From NCBI GenBank assembly GCA_049724395.1, contig JAUGWO010000080.1:62001-92674 (forward strand): 30,674 bases of DNA, given 5' to 3'. The notes under the pieces were generated by a model. That model saw nothing but the letters and a program-made list of their open reading frames with translations, had not been told where the DNA came from and searched no databases. The translations under genes and the position numbers were made by a program. This document shows, one piece after another, positions 14,491-30,674 of the stretch. Within the stretch, counting starts at the first letter, position 1; every line of letters starts with the position of its first letter. The stretch is from Spongospora subterranea f. sp. subterranea (Eukaryota).

Positions 14491-16723
14491 GCTACACGCA
14501 GACCTGGCGTTCAGCATTGTTGAAACAGGTGCAAGGCTGTGTTGGAACATCGACACATTATAGGGTATCCTGGCGTTGGTAAGAGCAGACCGATCAGCGA
14601 CGTCTACCATCATGTAGATAGCGTGCTGTTATTTTTGAGGTGAGTCAACAAGTATTTGTCGCTGCAGTCGCCTCTGTATAATCTGCAAAAATTCCTGGCA
14701 CATCGTCGTTTCGACTTGATGAATAATGCCATGTGTCAAGATACAAAAACAGAACCGTTGCCCAAGGCTTAGGATCGGTTTACAACTTAGAATGGAATTC
14801 ATATGTCCTAAACTATCCACTAACGAGGAGTCGCAAACCGAAAGTGTTTCGGTTTTATGTTTGTAAAATTCAAAAATAGCTTTGGTTTTAAGTAAATGAT
14901 TCTGTACGCCTTGAATTGTCTATCTTTCACTGTGTCGTCATTAAACAAACACGATCATCGGCGTTAATATTGTCTAATACGGTTATCGGTCTGAATACCA
15001 ACAAGTTCACGATCATTAGGAGAGTAGTTATCTTCACTATCATTCTTTGAATCAGTACATTCTTGGTAAGCCCAACAAGTCTGTCTCAATATATTGGGTT
15101 TCCTTTGATCGACATCATCGACATTACAATCCAAGCATGACCTTGATTATTGTTTCGGTTATTTGGAAATCATCCCCGACAAGGGACACCTTGCAATCGT
15201 ATCCTCTTCGGAACAGTGGCGACATTATCTGCACGGCGATAAGTCAAACTCGCTGAGATCAAGCATCTTGTCCAGGTCATGAATCAAACCGTAACAGCCG
15301 TATAATGTTGGTCAATGTTTTTAGTTCGACTTCAGACATGGTGCACAGTTCTTCGGAAAAAACTTCATCAGGAAGGTATCCAATTGCTGCTTGCGATAAG
15401 TGGATTGTTGCCAGACACGCATCATGCTGGGGTTCATCGCAATCAGAATGAGCGTCACTGTGCGCCATGTCCGAAGTCCATCAAAATATCGATCAAGACG
15501 TTCGGGCAGTTACGGTTCATTCCAAGGACCTGGATAAGATTTGATTTTTCATCCTTTGGATCGTGCGGCTCACTGAAATCCTTGATAGGAGTCGACGAAG
15601 AATATGATAAAAAATGGGGAAGAAGATATATGGTGGAGCCGTTTCTCGACGTATCGGGGAAGGCGGTCGCAAATAATGCATTCGCATCGAGGGTGAATAC
15701 CGACAGATAGAAACAGTCCTAATTCAAACAAAACACCATCGTGTTTCTGGAATTCGGCAATTTGTTAGAAGGTGGCCTTGCACAGATTCGGCAGGACTAG
15801 AGTCCTGCAGCACTGCTGGAAAGCGTTTCAATCAGATGGCTTTTGCACCCGAAATTAGAAGGGCAAGGCTTTCCTAGAGCCAATTATTAACTCCAACTAT
15901 CAAGACATATCTGTAAACTTTCATTTTTGTAAAACCGTCCTTAATCGTCCAAATAGGTACTTGGAACAAATGAAGTCTCACTTCGAACCGTATTTAGGGC
16001 AAGGACGATCTCCAAGTCAAAAAGTGATGCAACGAGCGTCTTCAACGACTCCTGCTGATCTGCTAACATAATCATGACCTCGTCGACTACATCATATCCA
16101 ACGACCCAATTGTCTGGAAAATCGGTAGATGACGCCAGATTATAGTGCAACAGATGTGCAAAGAATGAATCAGCGACAAACAGTAACGTTTCGACGTATT
16201 TTCCGAGACAAACAGGTGGACGTCGTGATTGACACAAACGGAAAGGTCCAAGCCAACTTTCGAAGCTGGTCGAATACGCATTCCGCGTTTGTCAAGTTCA
16301 ACGGAAACTGAAACCATTCCCCACGACGCCGAGAATCAATCGCGCGTCTGGGCTGGGCGTCCCCGTTCGGCAGTGACAAGTAGTTGTTCGTACAATTGGC
16401 GACAGGTGACAGTGGAGCCACAAGTACAGTGGCTGAGTGGATCTGACACGTTCGAATATGCCGAGGGTGTGACTGGTCTGCCGCCTGAGCAGGGGCACCA
16501 CTCGACCGCGCTGGTCGCCCGCCGGTCCACGCTTGGCCAGCACCGTAAAACAGCCGCCCGTTCCTGGCAGTGGACCGATATCAGTTTACAAGCCCACTTT
16601 ACCAGGTCGAGAAGGCACCGGTATTGTTGAACTAGCGTTTTGTTGCCAATCTGCGTTTTGATCGGTCGCTGCGTCATTAATCAATATATCCGCTCCGTTT
16701 TATATTAACTAGGTAGCATCAAA

Positions 16724-20879: not shown

Positions 20880-22030
20880 GCGATGTCAAGTGAGGGGATG
20901 GGAAGCGGGAGTAATAGACCCGAGGGTTTGCGGCGAGGAACTTTCGAACGCGCACAGACGTCACAAGATCGAACAAAAGAGGTGTAACCATCTTTAGCAT
21001 ACCTGGTCAGGTAAAATTGCGAGCAATTGATTCGATTTGATTTCAAAATGTCCTGCCAATGGAGAATCATGACAGGATGAAAGGATATTCAAACGCCTAA
21101 CTGCATCATCGACCACTTCAACTTCGGGGGGAGGAATGGGTCATAGCATTAATAAAGCGAGAACTACGAAAAACGGGTTATCGACGGGTTGATGATCGAC
21201 GGCCGATAATTCAGGACGACGGGACAATGCATCAGGTTTGTGAGAGAGAGATCCGGATCGGTGACGAATGACGAAGTGGGATTGAGACAACAACAATGAC
21301 CAACGAGCGTGACGCCGATTCAACAGTTTAGTTGTCATGAACCATTCGAGGTTCTGTGATCGCTCAACACCAAAATTAAGGATCCAGGTAATGCCTTTAA
21401 GCCTGAAAAGCTGTCACGATGGAATTAGCTCTTTATCTGAATCTCATAATTTAATTCCGATGGTGTAAATTTGCGAGAGTAAAACGCCACAGGGTGTAAT
21501 CCATCTGTGTGTATTCGGGACAAGATTGCACCAACTGCGTAATCGGACGCACCTGATTCGACAATAATGTCCAATTCAGGATCAAAATGGCGTAAAATAG
21601 GCGCCGATACAAAAGCTGACTTCAAAGTCTGAAATGAAGCATCAGCGCTAGTAGATGGCATCCTTCTTGGTCAACGAAAACAGTGGGTTGGTGATGCGTG
21701 AATAATTTGGAATAATCCACGATAGAAGTTCGCAAAACCCAGAAACGATTGAAGCTCTTTGACCGAATTCGGGATTGGTCAAGATATTATTGCTGAAATA
21801 CTTTCTGGATCCATGAGTAAGCCGCGAGAGGACAAGCGGAATCCTAATCTCGGAGACATGGAATACACATTTGCTCAGTTTGGCGAAGAGGTTGTGCTTT
21901 CGTAGAATTTGCAAAACAGTGTGAACGTGTTGAACATGTTCAACACCGTCCGGGGAGAAAATCAACGTGTTGCATTAATACACAACAACGAATCGATCAA
22001 TGCACTCATGTAGATGTCGTTCATGAATCG
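20880..22030 (-). mobile_element. Degenerate Ty3/Gypsy pol fragment (RT C-terminus, RNase H, integrase Zn finger)
   Basis: RFVVVY*CNTLIFS (destroyed YLDD), LFAKLSKCVF, LRHFDPE...[11 protein letters not shown]...[17 protein letters not shown]...DALSR and FVRSCDVCARSK...GLLLPLPIP. The order is RT-RH-INT, with many frameshifts. Confidence 0.92.
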
Positions 22031-22800
22031 GTGAAAACAAGCGGGTGTATTTGCCAAGCCAAAAGGCATCACCAAATATTCAAACAAACCGACTTTTGTC
22101 CTGCATGCAATTGTCCACTCATCGCCTGCCCTGATGCGAACGAGATCTTATTTCGCCATCCCGATCCTATTTACTTGGACAAGGCAACACGAGAGATTAT
22201 GCAATTCATGGAACATGCAGGCTTCGTTATCAACGTGGGCAGCAAAAGTATTCTCATCCCAACTCAACAAGTGTCTTTTTTAGGATTGATTCTGAATACG
22301 CCGCGTTTAACTATTGAAATCCCAACCGACAAACGTACTGCATACGACCATTCGATCCGTTCCTTATTACGACAGAAGTATCCGTCTGTTCGAGATCTTG
22401 CTACCCTTCGCGGCAAATCAAATTTTGTTAACATCTCATCTTCTAGGGGGCAGGCATCTTTGTCAGCACTACATTCACTCATCGGATCCCCAAATTGGCG
22501 ACATCGCGAATATCGTCGCTGGACTGTAGACGCTCGACTCTGTCTACACGATTGGATCCACCGTCATTTATTCCTTGTGGTGGGCGAACTACGCGCAGCT
22601 CAGAAGGCTATTCACGCTCTTCCATGTTGATAACATGGCAGTTCTAGGGATGCTGCAATCAGGACATTCTTCTTCCGTCCAGTGCGCTTCTATTTTACGC
22701 GCAATCCACCGTCGAATCCATATGCAAGCATTGTCTGTGCAATTCCGGTACATTCCTACGACCACTAATTGTATTGCTGACTCTTTGTCAAGACAGCAAC
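22031..22800 (+). mobile_element. DIRS-like (tyrosine-recombinase retroelement) RT/RNase H fragment, internally deleted
   Basis: GFVINVGSKSILIPTQQVSFLGLILNT...IEIPTDKR matches the DIRS-type RT end. ELRAA...DNMAV...GHSSS...YIPTTTNCIADSLSR matches a DIRS-type RNase H. The YxDD motif is degraded. Confidence 0.8.
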
Positions 22801-22869
22801 GCTATTTTATGAGAAAAAGGAAGGTTTTCCACGATTATCGTCCTGTTTGGGAATGCTGTTTTTCTTGAT

Positions 22870-24870: not shown

Positions 24871-25682
24871 GGCACTCCTATTCCATACCAACGCTAATTC
24901 AACAATTGCAAACGCAGATCTTGGATCTACAAAGCCAACTTGCAGATTTGCAAAGCCAACGATCCGAATCAGGTACCGACATGGTCACAACTCTGGCCTG
25001 CATACAAGTTGAGGTATCGGAATTACAAGTGCGAATCCCTACCCCAAACCCCACAAGCGCTTCCACAGCCTCCTATTGCTCAGTTGCCGAAACCCAACCA
25101 GTTTTCTGGCGATCGCAGTAAATTCCGACAGTGGTTCTGCCAAGTCACTAACTACCTGAGAATCTACAGTACTGGATATACATCAGACACGATGCGAGTA
25201 GGGCTGTTCAGTAGGGCTGTTCACCAGCCTCATGACCGAGTCGGCGCTCCTATGGCTGATGCCCTATGTTGAATCCAAGTCTTATATTTTAGATAACTTT
25301 GAGGGATTTATCGAAAACTTAAAACTTGATTCTACCTCAATCACAGTTCGACGTTATTCAACTTGGTTATGATTGGCTACAAAAGTTCAATCCACAGATA
25401 GACTGTCGAACTGGCAAGTTGAGAGTTTCTCATGCTGAATCCCCAGTCATTCCATTAGCATTAATGTCAGTCATCCACATGACCTCAAGGCCTGGTGCGA
25501 CGGTTTGGGGTAGGGATTCGCACTTGTAATTCCGATACCTCAGCCTGTATGCGGGCCAAAGTTGTGACCATGTCGGTACCTGATTCGGATCGTTGGCTTT
25601 GCGATTCTGCAAGTTGGCTTTGTAGATCCAAGATCTGCGTTTGCAATTGTTGAATTAGCGTTTGGTATGGAATAGGAGTGCC
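24871..25682. repeat. Inverted repeat: arms 24871-25050 and 25502-25682 (gag 5' region)
   Basis: Manual alignment gives 6 substitutions and 1 indel over about 180 bp. Confidence 0.97.
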
Positions 25683-26634
25683 TGGACGATATATTGATAT
25701 ATTCTGATACAGAAGCTGATCACATAAATCACGTTCGCTCCGTCCTGACAGTGTTACGGGAACAAGGTCTGTACGTTGAAATGGAAAAATGTGCTTTCCA
25801 CGCTTCAGAGGTTCAATTTTTTGGATATATAATCTCCAACAAATGTGTCAAAATGGACCCAGCCCGTGTCGATGCTGTTAATTCGTGGCCCCAACCCCTC
25901 TTTGTCAAGGAGTTTTACTTCAATCATTCTTAGGATTTGCAAATTTTTATCGACAATTTAATTCCAATTTCGCATCAACCTGTATGCCTTTATATGAACT
26001 AAGGTCTGACCACGTGGCCTCTAATGAATGTGGGAGAGCGAGCTGCTTGCAGTAAACTCGGAAACTCTGGATAGGCAATGTAATCAGGTGGGGGCAGGTC
26101 CCATTCGGTGTGGTCGGTAGGACAGATTATGTTGCTGAATCCAGCTGGTCTAATAGGTTCCTTCATTGGATACCCAAGCTACTTGTAGCGGCCAGGCGGA
26201 AGTAGGGAAAGTCTGGTAGTACACAGGCTTACTCAACCCATAAGAACCCGCGATCCTTTGTATACCATACCATACCATTTATATGAACTAACAACAAACA
26301 TGCAACCTTCAAGTACACTCCCCAATGTCAAATTTCCTTTCACTCCGCAATCAACTGCGCAAGTCACGAATCGACGAGATGCTGGCGGCGATCGATCGTG
26401 TTGCTGGTGGTGGGGAGTCGGCTGGCACCAAGGGTGACAGTCTAGGGATGCCTGGCGGGGTAGTCTTTCCTGACGATGACTAGAACTCTGAAGTGTCAGC
26501 TGCACTCCCAATTTCCTCTGAGTCTTCAGAGCGGGCCAAATTTTAGAACAGCCGTCAAAAGCTGTTCTCGCCGTTCATTGAATACTTATCATTGGTATGA
26601 GATGAGCGGACAGGTCCTTGTTGTCAATTCCTGC

Positions 26635-26700
26635 ACTGACGGAAAATATTTTGGAAGTCGGTACTTTACTGACAGAAAAATTATTAGAAGTCGGTGCTGT
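26635..26700 (+). repeat. Two degenerate 33-bp tandem units
   Basis: actgacggaaaatattttggaagtcggtacttt / actgacagaaaaattattagaagtcggtgctgt. Confidence 0.8.
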
Positions 26701-26713
26701 ATGAATGACTCAA

Positions 26714-26863
26714 CCGACAATACTACCATTTACTGGTGGCTATCCGACAATATTACCATTCTTTGGTGGCAATCCGACAATACCACCATTTATTGGTGGC
26801 AAACTGACAACACGACCATTAATTGGTGGCAATCTGACAATAAAACCATTTATAGGTGGCAAT
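26714..26863 (+). repeat. Five tandem 30-bp units in the LINE 5' region
   Basis: Consensus cYgacaataNNaccattNNNtggtggcaat, with units starting at 26714, 26744, 26774, 26804 and 26834. Confidence 0.97.
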
Positions 26864-27229
26864 GGCCAAAAGGAACACTAGTGACACTAAAACTATACTG
26901 GAAGTACAATGCCGTCATTTGGTGGAAACTACTGGTTAAGACGAAATATGGTCCCATTAACAGGGCCAAACAAGGGCCACAATTAACATCAACAACTATT
27001 AACAAGACTTTGACAGGAACAGTATACACGCCAAGTAATTGCACTTTTTGGTGGAAGCATAAGCGAACGACAACAACAAAAACACGGAATAATGCTCCTA
27101 ATAATAATGACATACAAACGCACAGAAGTAAGAGCAACACACATAAGAGGACACAAAACATTAATGAAACACATAATACTGACAAAAGTAAAACAATTAA
27201 GACAACACTACGACAAAATTACATAGGGA

Positions 27230-28264
27230 TAATGAATGCAGACGTGACAAATAATATCAGCACAATGAACGAATCCACAATAAGTAACGTCCCACAGATG
27301 ACTAAATGCCGTTGTATTAGGGGAATCGGCATACTATACGTGCCAGTGTCGCTCTCAGAATACATCCGTGGCGCAATTAAACCACGAACAGAAACGCTTC
27401 ATCTAGGCATCATGCAGAACGTTCCAATGGAGACCGAAACCAACAAGGAACAAACAATAGGAAGAAAACATCCCAGGGACAGGGCAACCACATCTAATGC
27501 AACATCCGATAAGACCAAAAAGATGAAGGACAAATTCATACCACGGTCAATGATGAATTATAACGGAAGCGATTTTAATGCCCAAAACACAACATGAAAT
27601 AGAAACTCTATTACCGGAACTCATCCAAGAAATACCTTGGCTCATGGCTAAACTAAAGAATGACGTTACGCCAATGGGAACAGGCACGATAATCATCAAA
27701 GGGCTAAAAATAGGTACACACCGAAGAATAGTTAAAAGAATAGTAACGAAACTAACTCCAACCACTCAGGACAATACAAAGCCCTGCAACAATACTGTGG
27801 GAGAAAAGGAATTCGAATCAGACCTACATCAGAGTCCAAACACGACACCAGCCGTAAAGTTATTGTGCAAGGCATCCCACCATACCTTATTAAAAACGGA
27901 ATGGCGATACAAGGCTGGAAAGGAAAACAACCGGACAAAGCTACCCAAATTGGAAGCAACACTACCATGTTCCAATTCCAGATGGCAAGTGATGCGAAGC
28001 AATGTCTATCGCAGGGAACGGTACATATATTCGGGAAACAATACAAGCCCCTGGCCTTCCAAAAAAAGGAAATACGAGTATGTGAAACATGCTACCAGAT
28101 TGAGTGCCTCCAAAAAAAACAAATGTGGCAAGATTGCCTGCTACATATGCAGTGAAGCTCACATGGCCGACTCATGCCCAAAGAAGAATAAGGATGAGCC
28201 TAAGTGCATTACATGCCAGGAAGAGGGACATTGGGCCATCCAATGCCCATGGCGTTACCTGTAA
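27230..28264 (+). pseudogene. LINE ORF1 (gag-like, RRM-like region plus three Cys/His knuckles), disrupted by frameshifts; start uncertain
   Basis: KVIVQGIPP...RVCETCYQIEC lies in one frame and CYICSEAHMADSC plus CITCQEEGHWAIQC in the next, switching at the A8 run 28112-28119. Further shifts are likely near 27556 and 27735-27800. Confidence 0.8.
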
Positions 28265-28528
28265 ATCAAGATTCAATAAAGCAAATATGACAAAGGGCCA
28301 CAAAAAGATGAGCAAAATGCAAATTGAATTTACCTACACTGAAAGCCGCAGTTATGACATGCTGAAGGAGTACACAAAGACTGGCAGATTGTGGTTTGTT
28401 TCATTATACAGGAAGGCCAAGATCTTATATTGCACCCCGAAATTAGATGCCGTCCCCTGCGACAACCAATTCTTCGCATCACTCGATACCTGGAATTGGA
28501 ACATGGTAAAATTGTTTCCAATTAGGGT
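27943..28528. repeat. Diverged gapless inverted repeat within the LINE: arms 27943-28060 and 28411-28528
   Basis: 118-bp arms, 91/118 identical by manual codon-wise alignment, no indels. Confidence 0.95.
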
Positions 28529-30674
28529 GTGGTTGAATGTAAAACGTGGGAAAAAACCAAATAACAGCAAAGTATGGAAAACAAGTGAAAACAAAACACT
28601 GGAACAATCAACACCATACAGTGGCGGAAACAGCAAAGGACTCCATACATCATGCATGGTGGAGATAAAAGAATACGAAATACGTATTTAGAGATGTCAT
28701 CGGAATAGGAAACTGCGCTTTCGAGGCGATCAGAGCATCAGGAGCGATCCCGAATATGACAGTGCAAAACCTACGAAAGGAAATATGTGAATTCGCTAGA
28801 AATCCTGAGCAAGGAAGAACCATTGCTAAAAAATTAAAACCCTATATAGGATCGCTGCCAAACAATGACAGCATAGGATTGGATGAATATCTGAATATAA
28901 TGAGTATCGATAGACAATGGGGAGGGTTGTTCGAACTCACCATAGCTGCATACAAATTTAAAATGAACATAATAGTAGTAAGTCAGACGAATCCAACGCT
29001 CATAACAGATATACAGAAATGGATAGAGAACACGTTACCAAAGTCACGTGATGTAACACCATGGACCAAAACAATTTACTTGTTACATCACAAGCATGGG
29101 AAACCATCAACACCAATGAGACATCAAGACTTGAACCATTATGGGACCCTTTTCCCTATAGAAACAACGGCTAGTGAATGGAATAATAGCGGTATGATGA
29201 CACCAGACAAATGTGACCTTTACATTGATCAGTACAAATTATCAAACAAAACAGACAGCTCAGCAACGCAAAATGTTAGAAATGATAATTCCAAACAGCA
29301 ATTTATGATAAAACCATCGCTAGACAAAACGATGAGACACGATAAAAACATAAATCCGAAAAGGCACCGATCATGCGACGATTCCGACGACCAACCCACT
29401 CAACGTGCCAAATATGAAAAACATCAAACGCACTCTAAACAAATCTGCACAAAAAAGCGAACATTGCTGATAGATAAGGACGGCACTGAAACGCAGTATA
29501 AAAGACGGCTTACCAACAGCGAGCGCCAATGCAAAGAAGTTGCAGACAATGAAACAGCGCGAAAAACAGCCTCAAAACAGACACCAACAAGCCAGATGAG
29601 CCACTACGAACTCACCAAATTGATCGGAAATATACTAGAACCAGACAACAAGGAAGACAATATAGCAGACACATCGGACAAAAACCTGAACGGAACTAAA
29701 ACACACAAACGGCAGATGAAAATAACTCAATATTTCATGAAAACCAATACCAAAACCAGAAAAATAAGAACAACCAGGAGCTTAAAAATCGCTCAATGGA
29801 ACGCCTGCTCCCTAAGCGAACAAAAATCAAAAGAACTGTCTCGATTTGCTAACACCAACCGCGTCGATGTAATATGTATATCAGAACTTCACCATAGACG
29901 CCAAGTAGACGATTTCCCAAACCACGAAGCCGATGACCGGTACACCCAAGCTGGAATTTTTTGGAGGGACCATGTAAATGTAGATGTGATGCGCATTCCT
30001 GCAATACAAACGTTTGGGAACGACGGAATCATGACACAAATAGTAAAAATATATAGTGAAATGATATTAATTCACATATATATACCACCGGATATAGATC
30101 GAAATACTAGAAAAACATATTGGAAACAAATCGGCAAATTCGTAGAAATGCGAGATGAACCGATACTTCTAACAGGTGACCTCAACACCAAAGATAGACG
30201 GTTTGGAATCCACCATGACGAAACTCACAAATACCTAGACAGCATATTGGAAGAATGCAAATTGATGAACAACCCGGAACGCCCAACAAGAGGAAACAAC
30301 TCATTAGATATCACCATTGCCAATCGACAGATGGCAAAGGAGATCTTACAATGGGACGTGCACGCAGAGCTAGGCAGTGACCATTCACCGACAACAATAG
30401 ATACTACAATTAGAAGAAAATCGACGAAAGGATTCCCCCTAGCCGTACACAGAACCATAATTGACACACGAGCTCATAATGAGTAACTGAAGAGGAACTG
30501 CAGAATGTTGAAAGCAAGAACATGGGACTAACAGCTTTCATTGACCTATTGCAAAATAGCATTAAGCACAAATATGTTAGACAGAATAGATGCAAATTCT
30601 GGACCACGAAACTCAAAATTGCGTTAAACTTGCGAAATAAACTCAAGCGCAAACACCAGGAAGCCATACTGAAA
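28287..30674 (+). pseudogene. LINE ORF2: N-terminal extension, OTU-like cysteine protease, PIP box, APE endonuclease (RT outside window); frameshifts near 28667 and 30481
   Basis: OTU: VIGIGNCAFEA (Cys 28714-28716), EYL..M....WGG..EL and NHY (His 29137-29139). APE (29782-30390): IAQWNACSL, DVICISE, IYIPP, LTGDLN, PTR...LDITI and LGSDH. The post-endonuclease FWTTKLK...RNKLKRK continues in a shifted frame. Confidence 0.88.

What the first reader, a model, noticed from the sequence alone, without database searches (positions are those of the whole stretch)
27943..28528. ORF2 N-terminus contains a gapless antisense copy of ORF1 that brackets the ORF1/ORF2 junction
Seen: 28411-28528 is a reverse-complement copy of ORF1 segment 27943-28060, with 27 substitutions and no indels. 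Read antisense it still gives IGNNFTMFQFQVSSDAKNWLSQGTASNFGVQYKILAF, versus ORF1 IGSNTTMFQFQMASDAKQCLSQGTVHIFGKQYKPLAF. It also stays open in the sense frame leading into ORF2. The 350-nt loop holds the zinc knuckles, the ORF1 stop and the likely ORF2 ATG (28287). Of 16 transitions, 13 give G-U/G-T pairs on the antisense/cDNA strand and only 3 on the sense RNA, though A-rich strand bias could also produce this. Inference: an old feature of the element, either a long-range stem regulating ORF2 translation or silencing, or new coding sequence created by inversion.
Basis: partly seen in the sequence, partly recalled or inferred. Interest (0 to 1): 0.72.

Follow-up and report, generated by a model that had tools for sequence, protein, structure and literature searches.

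The report
LINE with a Gag/Pol splice switch
The inverted repeat is real and sits in a LINE-like jumping gene of the potato powdery-scab protist, but it is likely a tolerated old duplication; the real surprise is a 56-base intron just upstream, whose removal gives the RNA-binding ORF1 reading frame and whose retention gives one long protease-endonuclease frame, likely a splice switch between the element's two proteins.

Summary
Observation confirmed: 118-nt gapless inverted pair, 27 substitutions. Both arms are covered in all 7 laid public runs that hold the element, so it is not copy-specific. What the surroundings show is more unusual. The element (Spongospora subterranea) has a 56-nt GT-AG intron at 27714-27769, removed in runs of 4 studies and kept in the two DNA-like runs. 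Spliced, it reads a Gag-like ORF1 (RRM plus knuckles) that aligns without gaps to two paralogues across the junction. Unspliced, one frame stays open for 1339 codons: through the intron, out of frame over the ORF1 core (0 stops in 163 codons; 4 of 50,000 resamplings), through both arms, OTU and APE. That likely explains why the arms are gapless and, with cis-preference, why a retroelement keeps an intron. A multiply spliced antisense RNA also exists, with an acceptor inside arm 2. RT lies outside the window and was not seen.

The parts
27943..28060 (+). Arm 1 of the inverted pair; codes the second half of the ORF1 RRM in one frame and linker of the long frame in another
   Evidence: frames; RRM fold
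28411..28528 (-). Arm 2, inverted copy of arm 1 (77%); on the plus strand it is read in the long OTU/APE frame; holds the 3' splice site of a minus-strand intron at 28490
28399..28410 (-). Weaker inward extension pairing with 28061-28072 (7 of 12); nothing significant further in
27714..27769 (+). 56-nt GT-AG intron (3n+2) with ACTAAC branch-like site; stop-free in the long frame; the proposed switch
   Evidence: joint in X16, X6, X3, X15; not listed in X1, X14, X2; boundaries
27523..28264 (+). Gag-like ORF1 formed only by removing the intron (227 codons from ATG 27523; 264 from 27412; up to 576 from 26476; start not determined)
   Evidence: gapless alignment of P0002/P0003 across the junction
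27835..28035 (+). RRM-like domain of ORF1
   Evidence: model pLDDT 61; best VIA-align rows are RRMs, top Z 6.2, rmsd 2.6, 62 aligned; Foldseek no match at E<=0.001; Pfam DUF4283 E 0.065
28139..28246 (+). Two CCHC-type zinc knuckles; ORF1 stop at 28262-28264
   Evidence: Pfam zf-CCHC E 8e-4, just under its cut-off
27770..28264 (+). Doubly coding stretch: ORF1 core and, shifted by one base, the long frame
   Evidence: 0 stops in 163 codons; synonymous resampling mean 6.1, zero in 4 of 50,000
26464..30486 (+). Long frame of the unspliced RNA, 1339 codons once three window-specific extra bases (27565, 28112, 28667) are left out; probably continues past the window
   Evidence: extra bases absent in runs
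28275..28280 (+). AATAAA 11 nt after the ORF1 stop; candidate poly(A) signal of a short ORF1 mRNA (use not shown)
28287..28319 (+). Three in-frame ATGs (28287, 28308, 28317), possible re-initiation sites
   Evidence: sequence
28693..29142 (+). OTU-like cysteine protease (Cys and His motifs present; Ile where the family motif, as recalled, has Asp)
   Evidence: Pfam OTU E 3.2e-6, above cut-off; motifs
29791..30384 (+). Apurinic-type endonuclease with N, E, Y, D-N, D and D-H motifs
   Evidence: Pfam Exo_endo_phos E 1.5e-8; motifs
27128..27320 (+). Second plus-strand GT-AG intron, 193 nt, seen in one run only
   Evidence: X6, depth 2021, 29 letters on the short side
28259..30349 (-). Eight minus-strand GT-AG introns: 28259-28337, 28490-28619, 28490-28648, 28771-29038, 29156-29513, 29812-29859, 29999-30234, 30235-30349; a spliced antisense RNA
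   Evidence: six in X15; two from deposited proteins P0001/P0007; 28771-29038 also as loose ends in X2 and X16

Best explanation
The repeat is a real, old inverted duplication that likely persists as a passenger in a LINE-like element whose two proteins are likely made by a splice switch: removing a 56-nt intron gives the Gag-like ORF1 frame, and keeping it gives one long frame through both arms, OTU and APE. Shown: the intron is removed in RNA-like runs and kept in DNA-like runs; both frames are open; the spliced reading is the one homologous to ORF1 paralogues. Inferred: only unspliced RNA makes the ORF2-type protein, so by cis-preference only unspliced RNA is copied back and the intron is inherited; ORF1p then has to reach that RNA in trans; the OTU protease may trim the roughly 400-740-residue leader off the endonuclease-RT part. 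Inferred for the repeat: a template switch during reverse transcription put a reversed piece of ORF1 into the dispensable linker behind the ORF1 stop; it was tolerated because the long frame stayed open (the unmutated inversion has no stop in that frame); indels have since been removed by selection on that frame, substitutions have not. The arms would still pair in full-length RNA (predicted), but no function of the stem is shown.
For: Splice joint 27711>27768 GT..AG in 4 of the 7 laid runs that hold the element, from 4 studies (X16; X6, X3, X15); not listed in DNA-like X1 and X14, nor in X2. P0002 and P0003 align with 0 gaps over 142 and 124 columns across the junction, scores 185 and 195 against 45 and 70 for the unspliced reading. 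Unspliced frame open 1339 codons; overlap stop-free in 4 of 50,000 synonymous resamplings and 2 of 50,000 codon shuffles, while alternative frames elsewhere hold 6-61 stops. Intron length fits plasmodiophorid introns of about 60 bp (PMC4471660, passages). Repeat as passenger: substitutions by codon position 9/8/10, amino-acid identity 27 of 39 against 23.2 in a cluster-keeping null (P=0.08), 13 A.C against 3 G.U mismatches on the sense RNA as composition predicts (P=0.22), antisense frame open in 47% of simulations.
Against: No RT was seen: it would lie beyond the window and no genome is held. Only X16 is on record as RNA; X6 is a guess, X3 and X15 are unlabelled; contigs give no strand, level or single molecules, and drop rare variants, so intron-less DNA copies are not excluded. 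X2 (RNA guess) shows no joint. The X3 contig is spliced and runs on to 29726, and three in-frame ATGs follow the ORF1 stop, so spliced RNA might also make ORF2p. Multi-copy status rests on depth ratios (main contigs 10-25 times deeper than relatives) that the tool says are no copy number. Against 'mere passenger': against a simple random null the amino-acid identity was significant (P=0.006), mismatches cluster (17 codons hit against 21, P=0.011), the arms still fold strongly, and windows just inside the arms pair better than shuffles (P 0.004-0.044, mostly from the first 12 nt). The window copy differs from the runs at 30426-30487, so continuation of the long frame past APE is compatible but not shown.
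Confidence: 0.6

Rival explanations
1. Same splice switch, but the stem is selected: it forms only in RNA that reads past the AATAAA after the ORF1 stop, and marks full-length RNA for export, for ORF1p binding in trans or for Dicer-type self-limitation, or it hides a cryptic acceptor in arm 1.
For: Arm pairs have mean probability 0.75 in folds that include arm 2; the AG at 27981 drops from about 0.5 to 0.1 unpaired. Arm 2 lies behind the AATAAA. The longest perfect block (19 nt) is the polypyrimidine-AG that the antisense RNA uses as acceptor in arm 2. The genus has Argonautes and one Dicer-like gene, and no RdRP was found in P. brassicae (PMC4471660, passages).
Against: Sense-strand mismatches are mostly A.C, not G.U (13 against 3); the 19-nt block is not exceptional (P=0.09); splice sites and AATAAA are equally accessible with or without arm 2; no joint uses the arm-1 AG; no covariation data.
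Confidence: 0.22
2. Ordinary bicistronic LINE: spliced RNA makes ORF1p and, by re-initiation at 28287/28308/28317, ORF2p; the stem helps ribosomes across the junction.
For: Three in-frame ATGs 23-53 nt after the stop; a spliced 3528-nt contig spans both ORFs in X3.
Against: It does not explain the stop-free overlap (P about 1e-4) or the stop-free intron; spliced L1 RNA does retrotranspose in cis and fixes the splice (PMC5860796, abstract and passages), so the intron should have been lost, yet DNA-like runs keep it.
Confidence: 0.1
3. The element is not copied through RNA (for example a Helentron-like DNA element with OTU and APE), so intron retention needs no explanation.
For: Helentrons carry APE and OTU (PMC4067079, passages); RT not seen here.
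Against: In Helentrons APE is fused behind Rep/helicase; here only about 210 low-complexity residues lie between OTU and APE, an RRM-knuckle ORF lies upstream, and an open frame continues after APE.
Confidence: 0.05
4. Arm 2 is kept because the antisense RNA encodes an ORF1-like peptide.
For: A 162-codon open antisense frame with an ATG at 28823 holds arm 2; antisense RNA exists.
Against: Such a frame is expected opposite this coding sequence (P=0.39); the splices shift or cut it; dN/dS not significant.
Confidence: 0.02
5. Copy-specific insertion or assembly artefact.
For: The window copy has three private one-base insertions and a private difference at 30426-30487.
Against: Both arms are covered, colinear, in all 7 runs that hold the element and arm 2 is in deposited proteins P0001 and P0007.
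Confidence: 0.01

Closest known systems
Ty1/Copia splice strategy (barley BARE1, Arabidopsis EVD shGAG, Drosophila copia; PMC5580714, abstract and passages read)
   Same: A short intron whose removal shifts the frame and yields a Gag-only RNA, while the unspliced RNA carries the long ORF and serves as template; in EVD coupled to early polyadenylation (here a candidate AATAAA).
   Different: Those are LTR elements with the intron at or after the end of Gag, so Gag-Pol contains Gag. Here the element is LINE-like and the intron lies before the RRM and knuckles, so the long product skips the ORF1 core by reading it out of frame for 163 codons.
APE-type LINEs with RRM plus CCHC ORF1 (I/Jockey/R1/Tad-like; group names recalled)
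   Same: RRM-like domain followed by zinc knuckles, then APE with all motifs; A-rich sense strand.
   Different: ORF1 needs splicing; ORF2-type frame shares the ORF1 N-terminus and has an OTU domain before APE; ORF1p would work in trans. Clade not determined, RT not seen.
Human L1 SpIREs (PMC5860796, abstract and passages read)
   Same: Splicing inside a LINE RNA in or near ORF1.
   Different: In L1 splicing damages ORF1p and the spliced form is fixed in dead-end copies; here splicing creates ORF1 and DNA keeps the intron.
Penelope-like elements that retain introns (PMC8557442, passages read)
   Same: Retroelement that keeps a spliceosomal intron; the paper calls this highly unusual among retroelements.
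   Different: PLEs have GIY-YIG or no endonuclease and the reason for retention is unknown; here APE and a frame-based reason.
Drosophila TART spliced antisense transcripts (PMC1636488, abstract read)
   Same: Non-LTR element with multiply spliced antisense RNA.
   Different: Here one antisense acceptor lies in an inverted copy of ORF1; no telomeric role examined.
Twin-priming / template-switch inversions in LINE copies (recalled; named in earlier finding e1-7152194)
   Same: Inverted piece of the element within the element.
   Different: Those are usually dead single copies; this one lies in frame in the dominant, apparently intact form.

Membership tests
APE-type non-LTR retrotransposon (LINE) | APE endonuclease with catalytic motifs, upstream of RT | tested here: met
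   Pfam PF03372 E 1.5e-8; motifs WNA, ISELH, IYIPP, GDLN, LDITI, SDH; position relative to RT not seen
APE-type non-LTR retrotransposon (LINE) | Non-LTR reverse transcriptase domain | not testable with these tools
   window ends at 30674; no genome held; no related loci; contigs of X3 and X6 run about 1.5 kb further but their letters are not given
APE-type non-LTR retrotransposon (LINE) | Gag-like ORF1 (RRM and CCHC knuckles) | tested here: met
   two knuckle patterns; RRM-type rows lead the fold search at Z 6.2 (middling Z); formed by splicing
APE-type non-LTR retrotransposon (LINE) | 3' tail, target-site duplication, 5'-truncated dispersed copies | not testable with these tools
   3' end outside the window; copy number only hinted by depth ratios
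APE-type non-LTR retrotransposon (LINE) | Bicistronic, unspliced RNA with separate ORF1 and ORF2 (usual, not strictly defining) | tested here: not met
   unspliced RNA has one long frame and no complete ORF1
Ty1/Copia with spliced Gag RNA | LTRs, aspartic protease, integrase | tested here: not met
   OTU and APE instead; works like it, is not a member
Ty1/Copia with spliced Gag RNA | Splicing coupled to early polyadenylation | tested here: inconclusive
   AATAAA after the stop; contigs cannot show ends; X3 spliced contig runs on
Helentron | Rep/helicase fused in front of APE | tested here: not met
   no such domain between OTU and APE; definition from PMC4067079
Conserved functional RNA stem | Compensatory changes across relatives | not testable with these tools
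   no differences listed in the arms among laid contigs except one 4-nt gap in a minor X6 contig; diverged subfamilies did not lay over the arms at 80%; Rfam nothing
ADAR-edited hairpin | Excess A-to-G giving G-U pairs on the sense RNA | tested here: not met
   3 G.U among 27 mismatches

The most novel reading that the evidence does not exclude
A LINE lineage that has replaced the bicistronic ORF1/ORF2 design by a splice-and-poly(A) switch: a short spliced RNA makes ORF1p, which acts in trans; the intron-retaining RNA makes an OTU-processed polyprotein read out of frame across ORF1 and is the only template; and the inverted ORF1 copy, present only in full-length RNA, folds back on ORF1 as the tag that tells the genomic RNA from the ORF1 mRNA.
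Probability: 0.18. Interest if true: 0.9.

Novelty: new variant of a known kind. Interest (0 to 1): 0.72.

Why it matters
LINEs are taken to make both proteins from one unspliced RNA, to use them in cis, and to lose introns. An element in which ORF1 exists only after splicing, while the inherited RNA must keep the intron to make the ORF2-type protein, would show that the Copia/retroviral way of setting the Gag:Pol ratio arose independently in a non-LTR element, and would give a natural case of ORF1p acting in trans. It also gives a concrete, testable reason for intron retention in a retroelement. The inverted repeat on its own is of modest interest unless covariation or function turns up.

Tried and rejected
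No genome held. Word-based protein searches: none for OTU-APE (lengths 332-1059 only), only P0001 for the ORF1 region. Related loci: none in metagenome or viral contigs. HMMER over representatives gave 5 hits, of which P0004 and P0005 are unrelated repeat proteins and were dropped. Raw-read run X24: 0 reads laid, no test; 8 of the 24 listed runs were laid. The protein atlas did not answer. PDB sequence searches uninformative; single-sequence OTU model unusable, pLDDT 38; Foldseek no match; alignment A1 used the wrong frame and was replaced by A2. Rfam: one chance hit, E 0.4. Rejected: G-U asymmetry as selection; antisense protein; ADAR editing; a longer gapped duplication into the loop (after skipping 12 nt P 0.04-0.23, alignment P 0.55); stem hiding the splice sites or AATAAA; a local inversion as cause of the 30426-30487 difference (6 of 8 letters fit but P=0.19; my note overstated it). 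Hint only, not evidence: in X6 the contig over 27972-28118 has depth 11,765 and the 4024-nt contig starting at 28113 has mean 786, so at most about 267 of its words could be that deep, which would fit an abundant RNA ending before arm 2; the tool states that contigs show neither level nor ends. Literature: ten full-text searches, listings only except the papers named; none listed a LINE whose ORF1 requires splicing, nor OTU in a LINE; the library lacks most subscription papers and Repbase reports, and no supplements were opened.

Full report
OBSERVATION. The inverted pair is as described: 27943-28060 against 28411-28528, 118 nt, no gaps, 27 substitutions, 16 transitions, of which 13 give G-U on the minus strand and 3 on the plus strand. 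It is far beyond chance (E 2.8e-19; score 50.5 against at most 13.5 in 20 shuffles) and folds on either strand (z -9.6 and -12.4). The ungapped match extends 12 nt further inwards; a longer gapped extension was not significant once those 12 nt were left out.

WHAT IT LIES IN. The last 4.2 kb of the window hold a LINE-like element: an RRM-like domain (top fold rows are RRMs, Z 6.2, a middling value), two CCHC patterns, an OTU-like protease and an APE endonuclease with all motifs. RT would lie beyond the window and was not seen; no genome is held. A protein 100% identical over the shared part is deposited for Spongospora subterranea (P0001), a plasmodiophorid protist; two ORF1 paralogues at 27-32% identity come from the same species (P0002, P0003).

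NOT COPY-SPECIFIC. Twenty runs of 8 studies hold the stretch or part of it; I laid 8 of the 24 listed, 7 of which hold the element. In DNA-like X1 one contig of depth 2140 covers 27340-29000 with 2 other letters and 3 one-base gaps; in X14 the contigs over most of both arms have no other letters. All 7 runs cover both arms. Related subfamilies at 80-90% appear at 10-25 times lower depth but do not lay over the arms, apart from the last 29 nt of arm 1 in one contig, so covariation could not be tested. Three bases (27565, 28112, 28667), each in a short run of one letter, are private to the window copy and account for three of its four apparent frameshifts before APE.

THE FOURTH FRAMESHIFT IS AN INTRON. 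Four runs from four studies join 27713 to 27770 (X16, on record as oligo-dT RNA; X6, X3, X15). The skipped 56 nt read GTACAC...ACTAAC...CTCAG, the size reported for plasmodiophorid introns (about 60 bp; PMC4471660, passages). X1, X14 and X2 show no such joint. Independent support: P0002 and P0003 align to the spliced reading without a gap over 142 and 124 columns across the junction (scores 185, 195) and only to its first part in the unspliced reading (45, 70). Their N-termini put the equivalent start near ATG 27523 (227 codons), though upstream starts are open too.

THE UNSPLICED RNA HAS ONE LONG FRAME. With the three private bases left out and the intron kept, 26464-30486 is open for 1339 codons: the ORF1 N-terminus, the intron itself, the RRM and knuckles read one base out of frame, both arms, OTU and APE. 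The overlap has 0 stops in 163 codons; resampling synonymous ORF1 codons gives 6.1 on average and zero in 4 of 50,000; the third frame has 9. The stop at 30484 lies in a stretch (30426-30487) where the window differs from X6, X3 and X15; a frame is open from there to the window end, so continuation is compatible but not shown.

MECHANISM. Shown: spliced RNA has a complete ORF1 frame; unspliced RNA has none but has the long frame. Inferred: this is a switch. LINE proteins prefer their own RNA (PMC5860796, passages), so if only intron-retaining RNA makes the ORF2-type protein, only it is copied and the intron is inherited; ORF1p must then come in trans. An AATAAA 11 nt behind the ORF1 stop could end a short ORF1 mRNA before arm 2, as early polyadenylation does for Arabidopsis Copia shGAG RNA (PMC5580714, abstract and passages); its use is not shown, and a spliced X3 contig runs on to 29726. 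The OTU domain may release the endonuclease part from its leader (untested). Three in-frame ATGs after the stop keep re-initiation on spliced RNA possible.

WHAT THIS MEANS FOR THE REPEAT. Both arms lie in the long frame, which is enough to explain why they have no indels; the unmutated inversion of arm 1 has no stop in that frame, so it could be tolerated at birth. The other clues fade under controls: the element's sense strand is 39% A, which predicts 69% A.C among transition mismatches (13 of 16, P=0.22; against 50:50, P=0.011); the antisense ORF1-like frame stays open in 47% of simulations; dN/dS in that frame is 0.53 and amino-acid identity 27 of 39 is significant against scattered substitutions (P=0.006) but not against a null that keeps their clustering (P=0.08); the 162-codon antisense frame is ordinary (P=0.39). 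The mild synonymous lean is what either selection on arm 1 alone or capture from a diverged relative would give; I cannot tell a self-duplication from capture. The stem is still predicted to form in full-length RNA (mean pair probability 0.75) and to cover a cryptic AG at 27981, but leaves the real splice sites and AATAAA unchanged. I rate passenger above selected stem by roughly 3 to 1.

ANTISENSE RNA. P0001 and P0007 skip 28259-28337 and P0001 also 28490-28619; X15 skips six further or shared segments. All eight read GT..AG with pyrimidine-rich 3' ends on the minus strand, so a multiply spliced antisense RNA crosses the element, as for TART (PMC1636488, abstract). The acceptor at 28490 is the end of the 19-nt perfect block of the repeat (block length itself P=0.09). 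It offers a second source of double-stranded RNA and a plausible template for the switch that made arm 2 (inference). Whether it comes from many copies or one locus is unknown.

COMPARISON AND NOVELTY. It works like BARE1/EVD/copia splicing but is no LTR element, and the intron sits before, not after, the Gag core. In L1, splicing harms ORF1p and is fixed in dead-end copies. Intron retention is called highly unusual among retroelements and is known for Penelope-like elements (PMC8557442, passages). Helentrons share OTU and APE but have Rep/helicase before APE (PMC4067079, passages); PMC8616336, PMC5718144 and bioRxiv 10.1101/2023.05.27.542554 (passages) added nothing on LINE introns. Ten searches listed no LINE of this design; the library is incomplete and no supplements were read. 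Three earlier scan notes describe inverted pieces in LINEs of other genomes as debris or ADAR fossils (unchecked leads); here ADAR does not fit and the element looks intact in the runs. Verdict: the repeat alone about 0.4; the splice-switch architecture found around it 0.72; new variant of a known kind.

Noticed in passing
window 24871-25050 and 25502-25682: A second, much younger inverted pair (181 nt, 96%) in degraded gag/RT debris (weak Pfam DUF4939 and RVT_1 hints nearby); inverted duplications recur in this region.
   Followed up: no
window 15258-15349 and 15457-15545: A third inverted pair, 74% with gaps, about 107 nt apart, in the host-gene part of the window.
   Followed up: no
window 26714-26863: Five-unit 30-nt tandem repeat read in the long frame as a Trp-rich 10-residue repeat (DNTTIYWW-like); 26464-27564 has 0 stops in this frame against 24 and 38 in the others. 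The 5' end of the element was not determined.
   Followed up: partly
window 27128-27320: Second plus-strand GT-AG intron (193 nt) in X6 only; removing it closes the upstream frame at 27406 and leaves ATG 27412 onward.
   Followed up: partly
window 26880 joined to 28440: Loose ends in DNA-like X14 and RNA X16 join the 5' region directly to the middle of arm 2; no GT-AG on either strand; probably an internally deleted derivative lacking ORF1 and arm 1.
   Followed up: no
window 30426-30487: The window copy differs from X6, X3 and X15 by about 8 substitutions and 10 gap letters; local inversion not established (P=0.19).
   Followed up: partly
window 28671-28990, 27767-27884, 28205-28349: Related subfamilies at about 83-90% identity are present in DNA-like and RNA runs; one lacks 5 letters at 28304-28312, which would shift the long frame unless compensated outside the aligned part.
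   Followed up: no
window 21651-22868 and 25690-25990: Degraded RT/RNase H-like pieces in opposite orientations (one weak Pfam RVT_1 hint), suggesting nested LTR or DIRS-like debris upstream of the LINE.
   Followed up: no
window 27968: A 4-nt gap inside arm 1 in a minor X6 contig (depth 1840 of 21,738).
   Followed up: no
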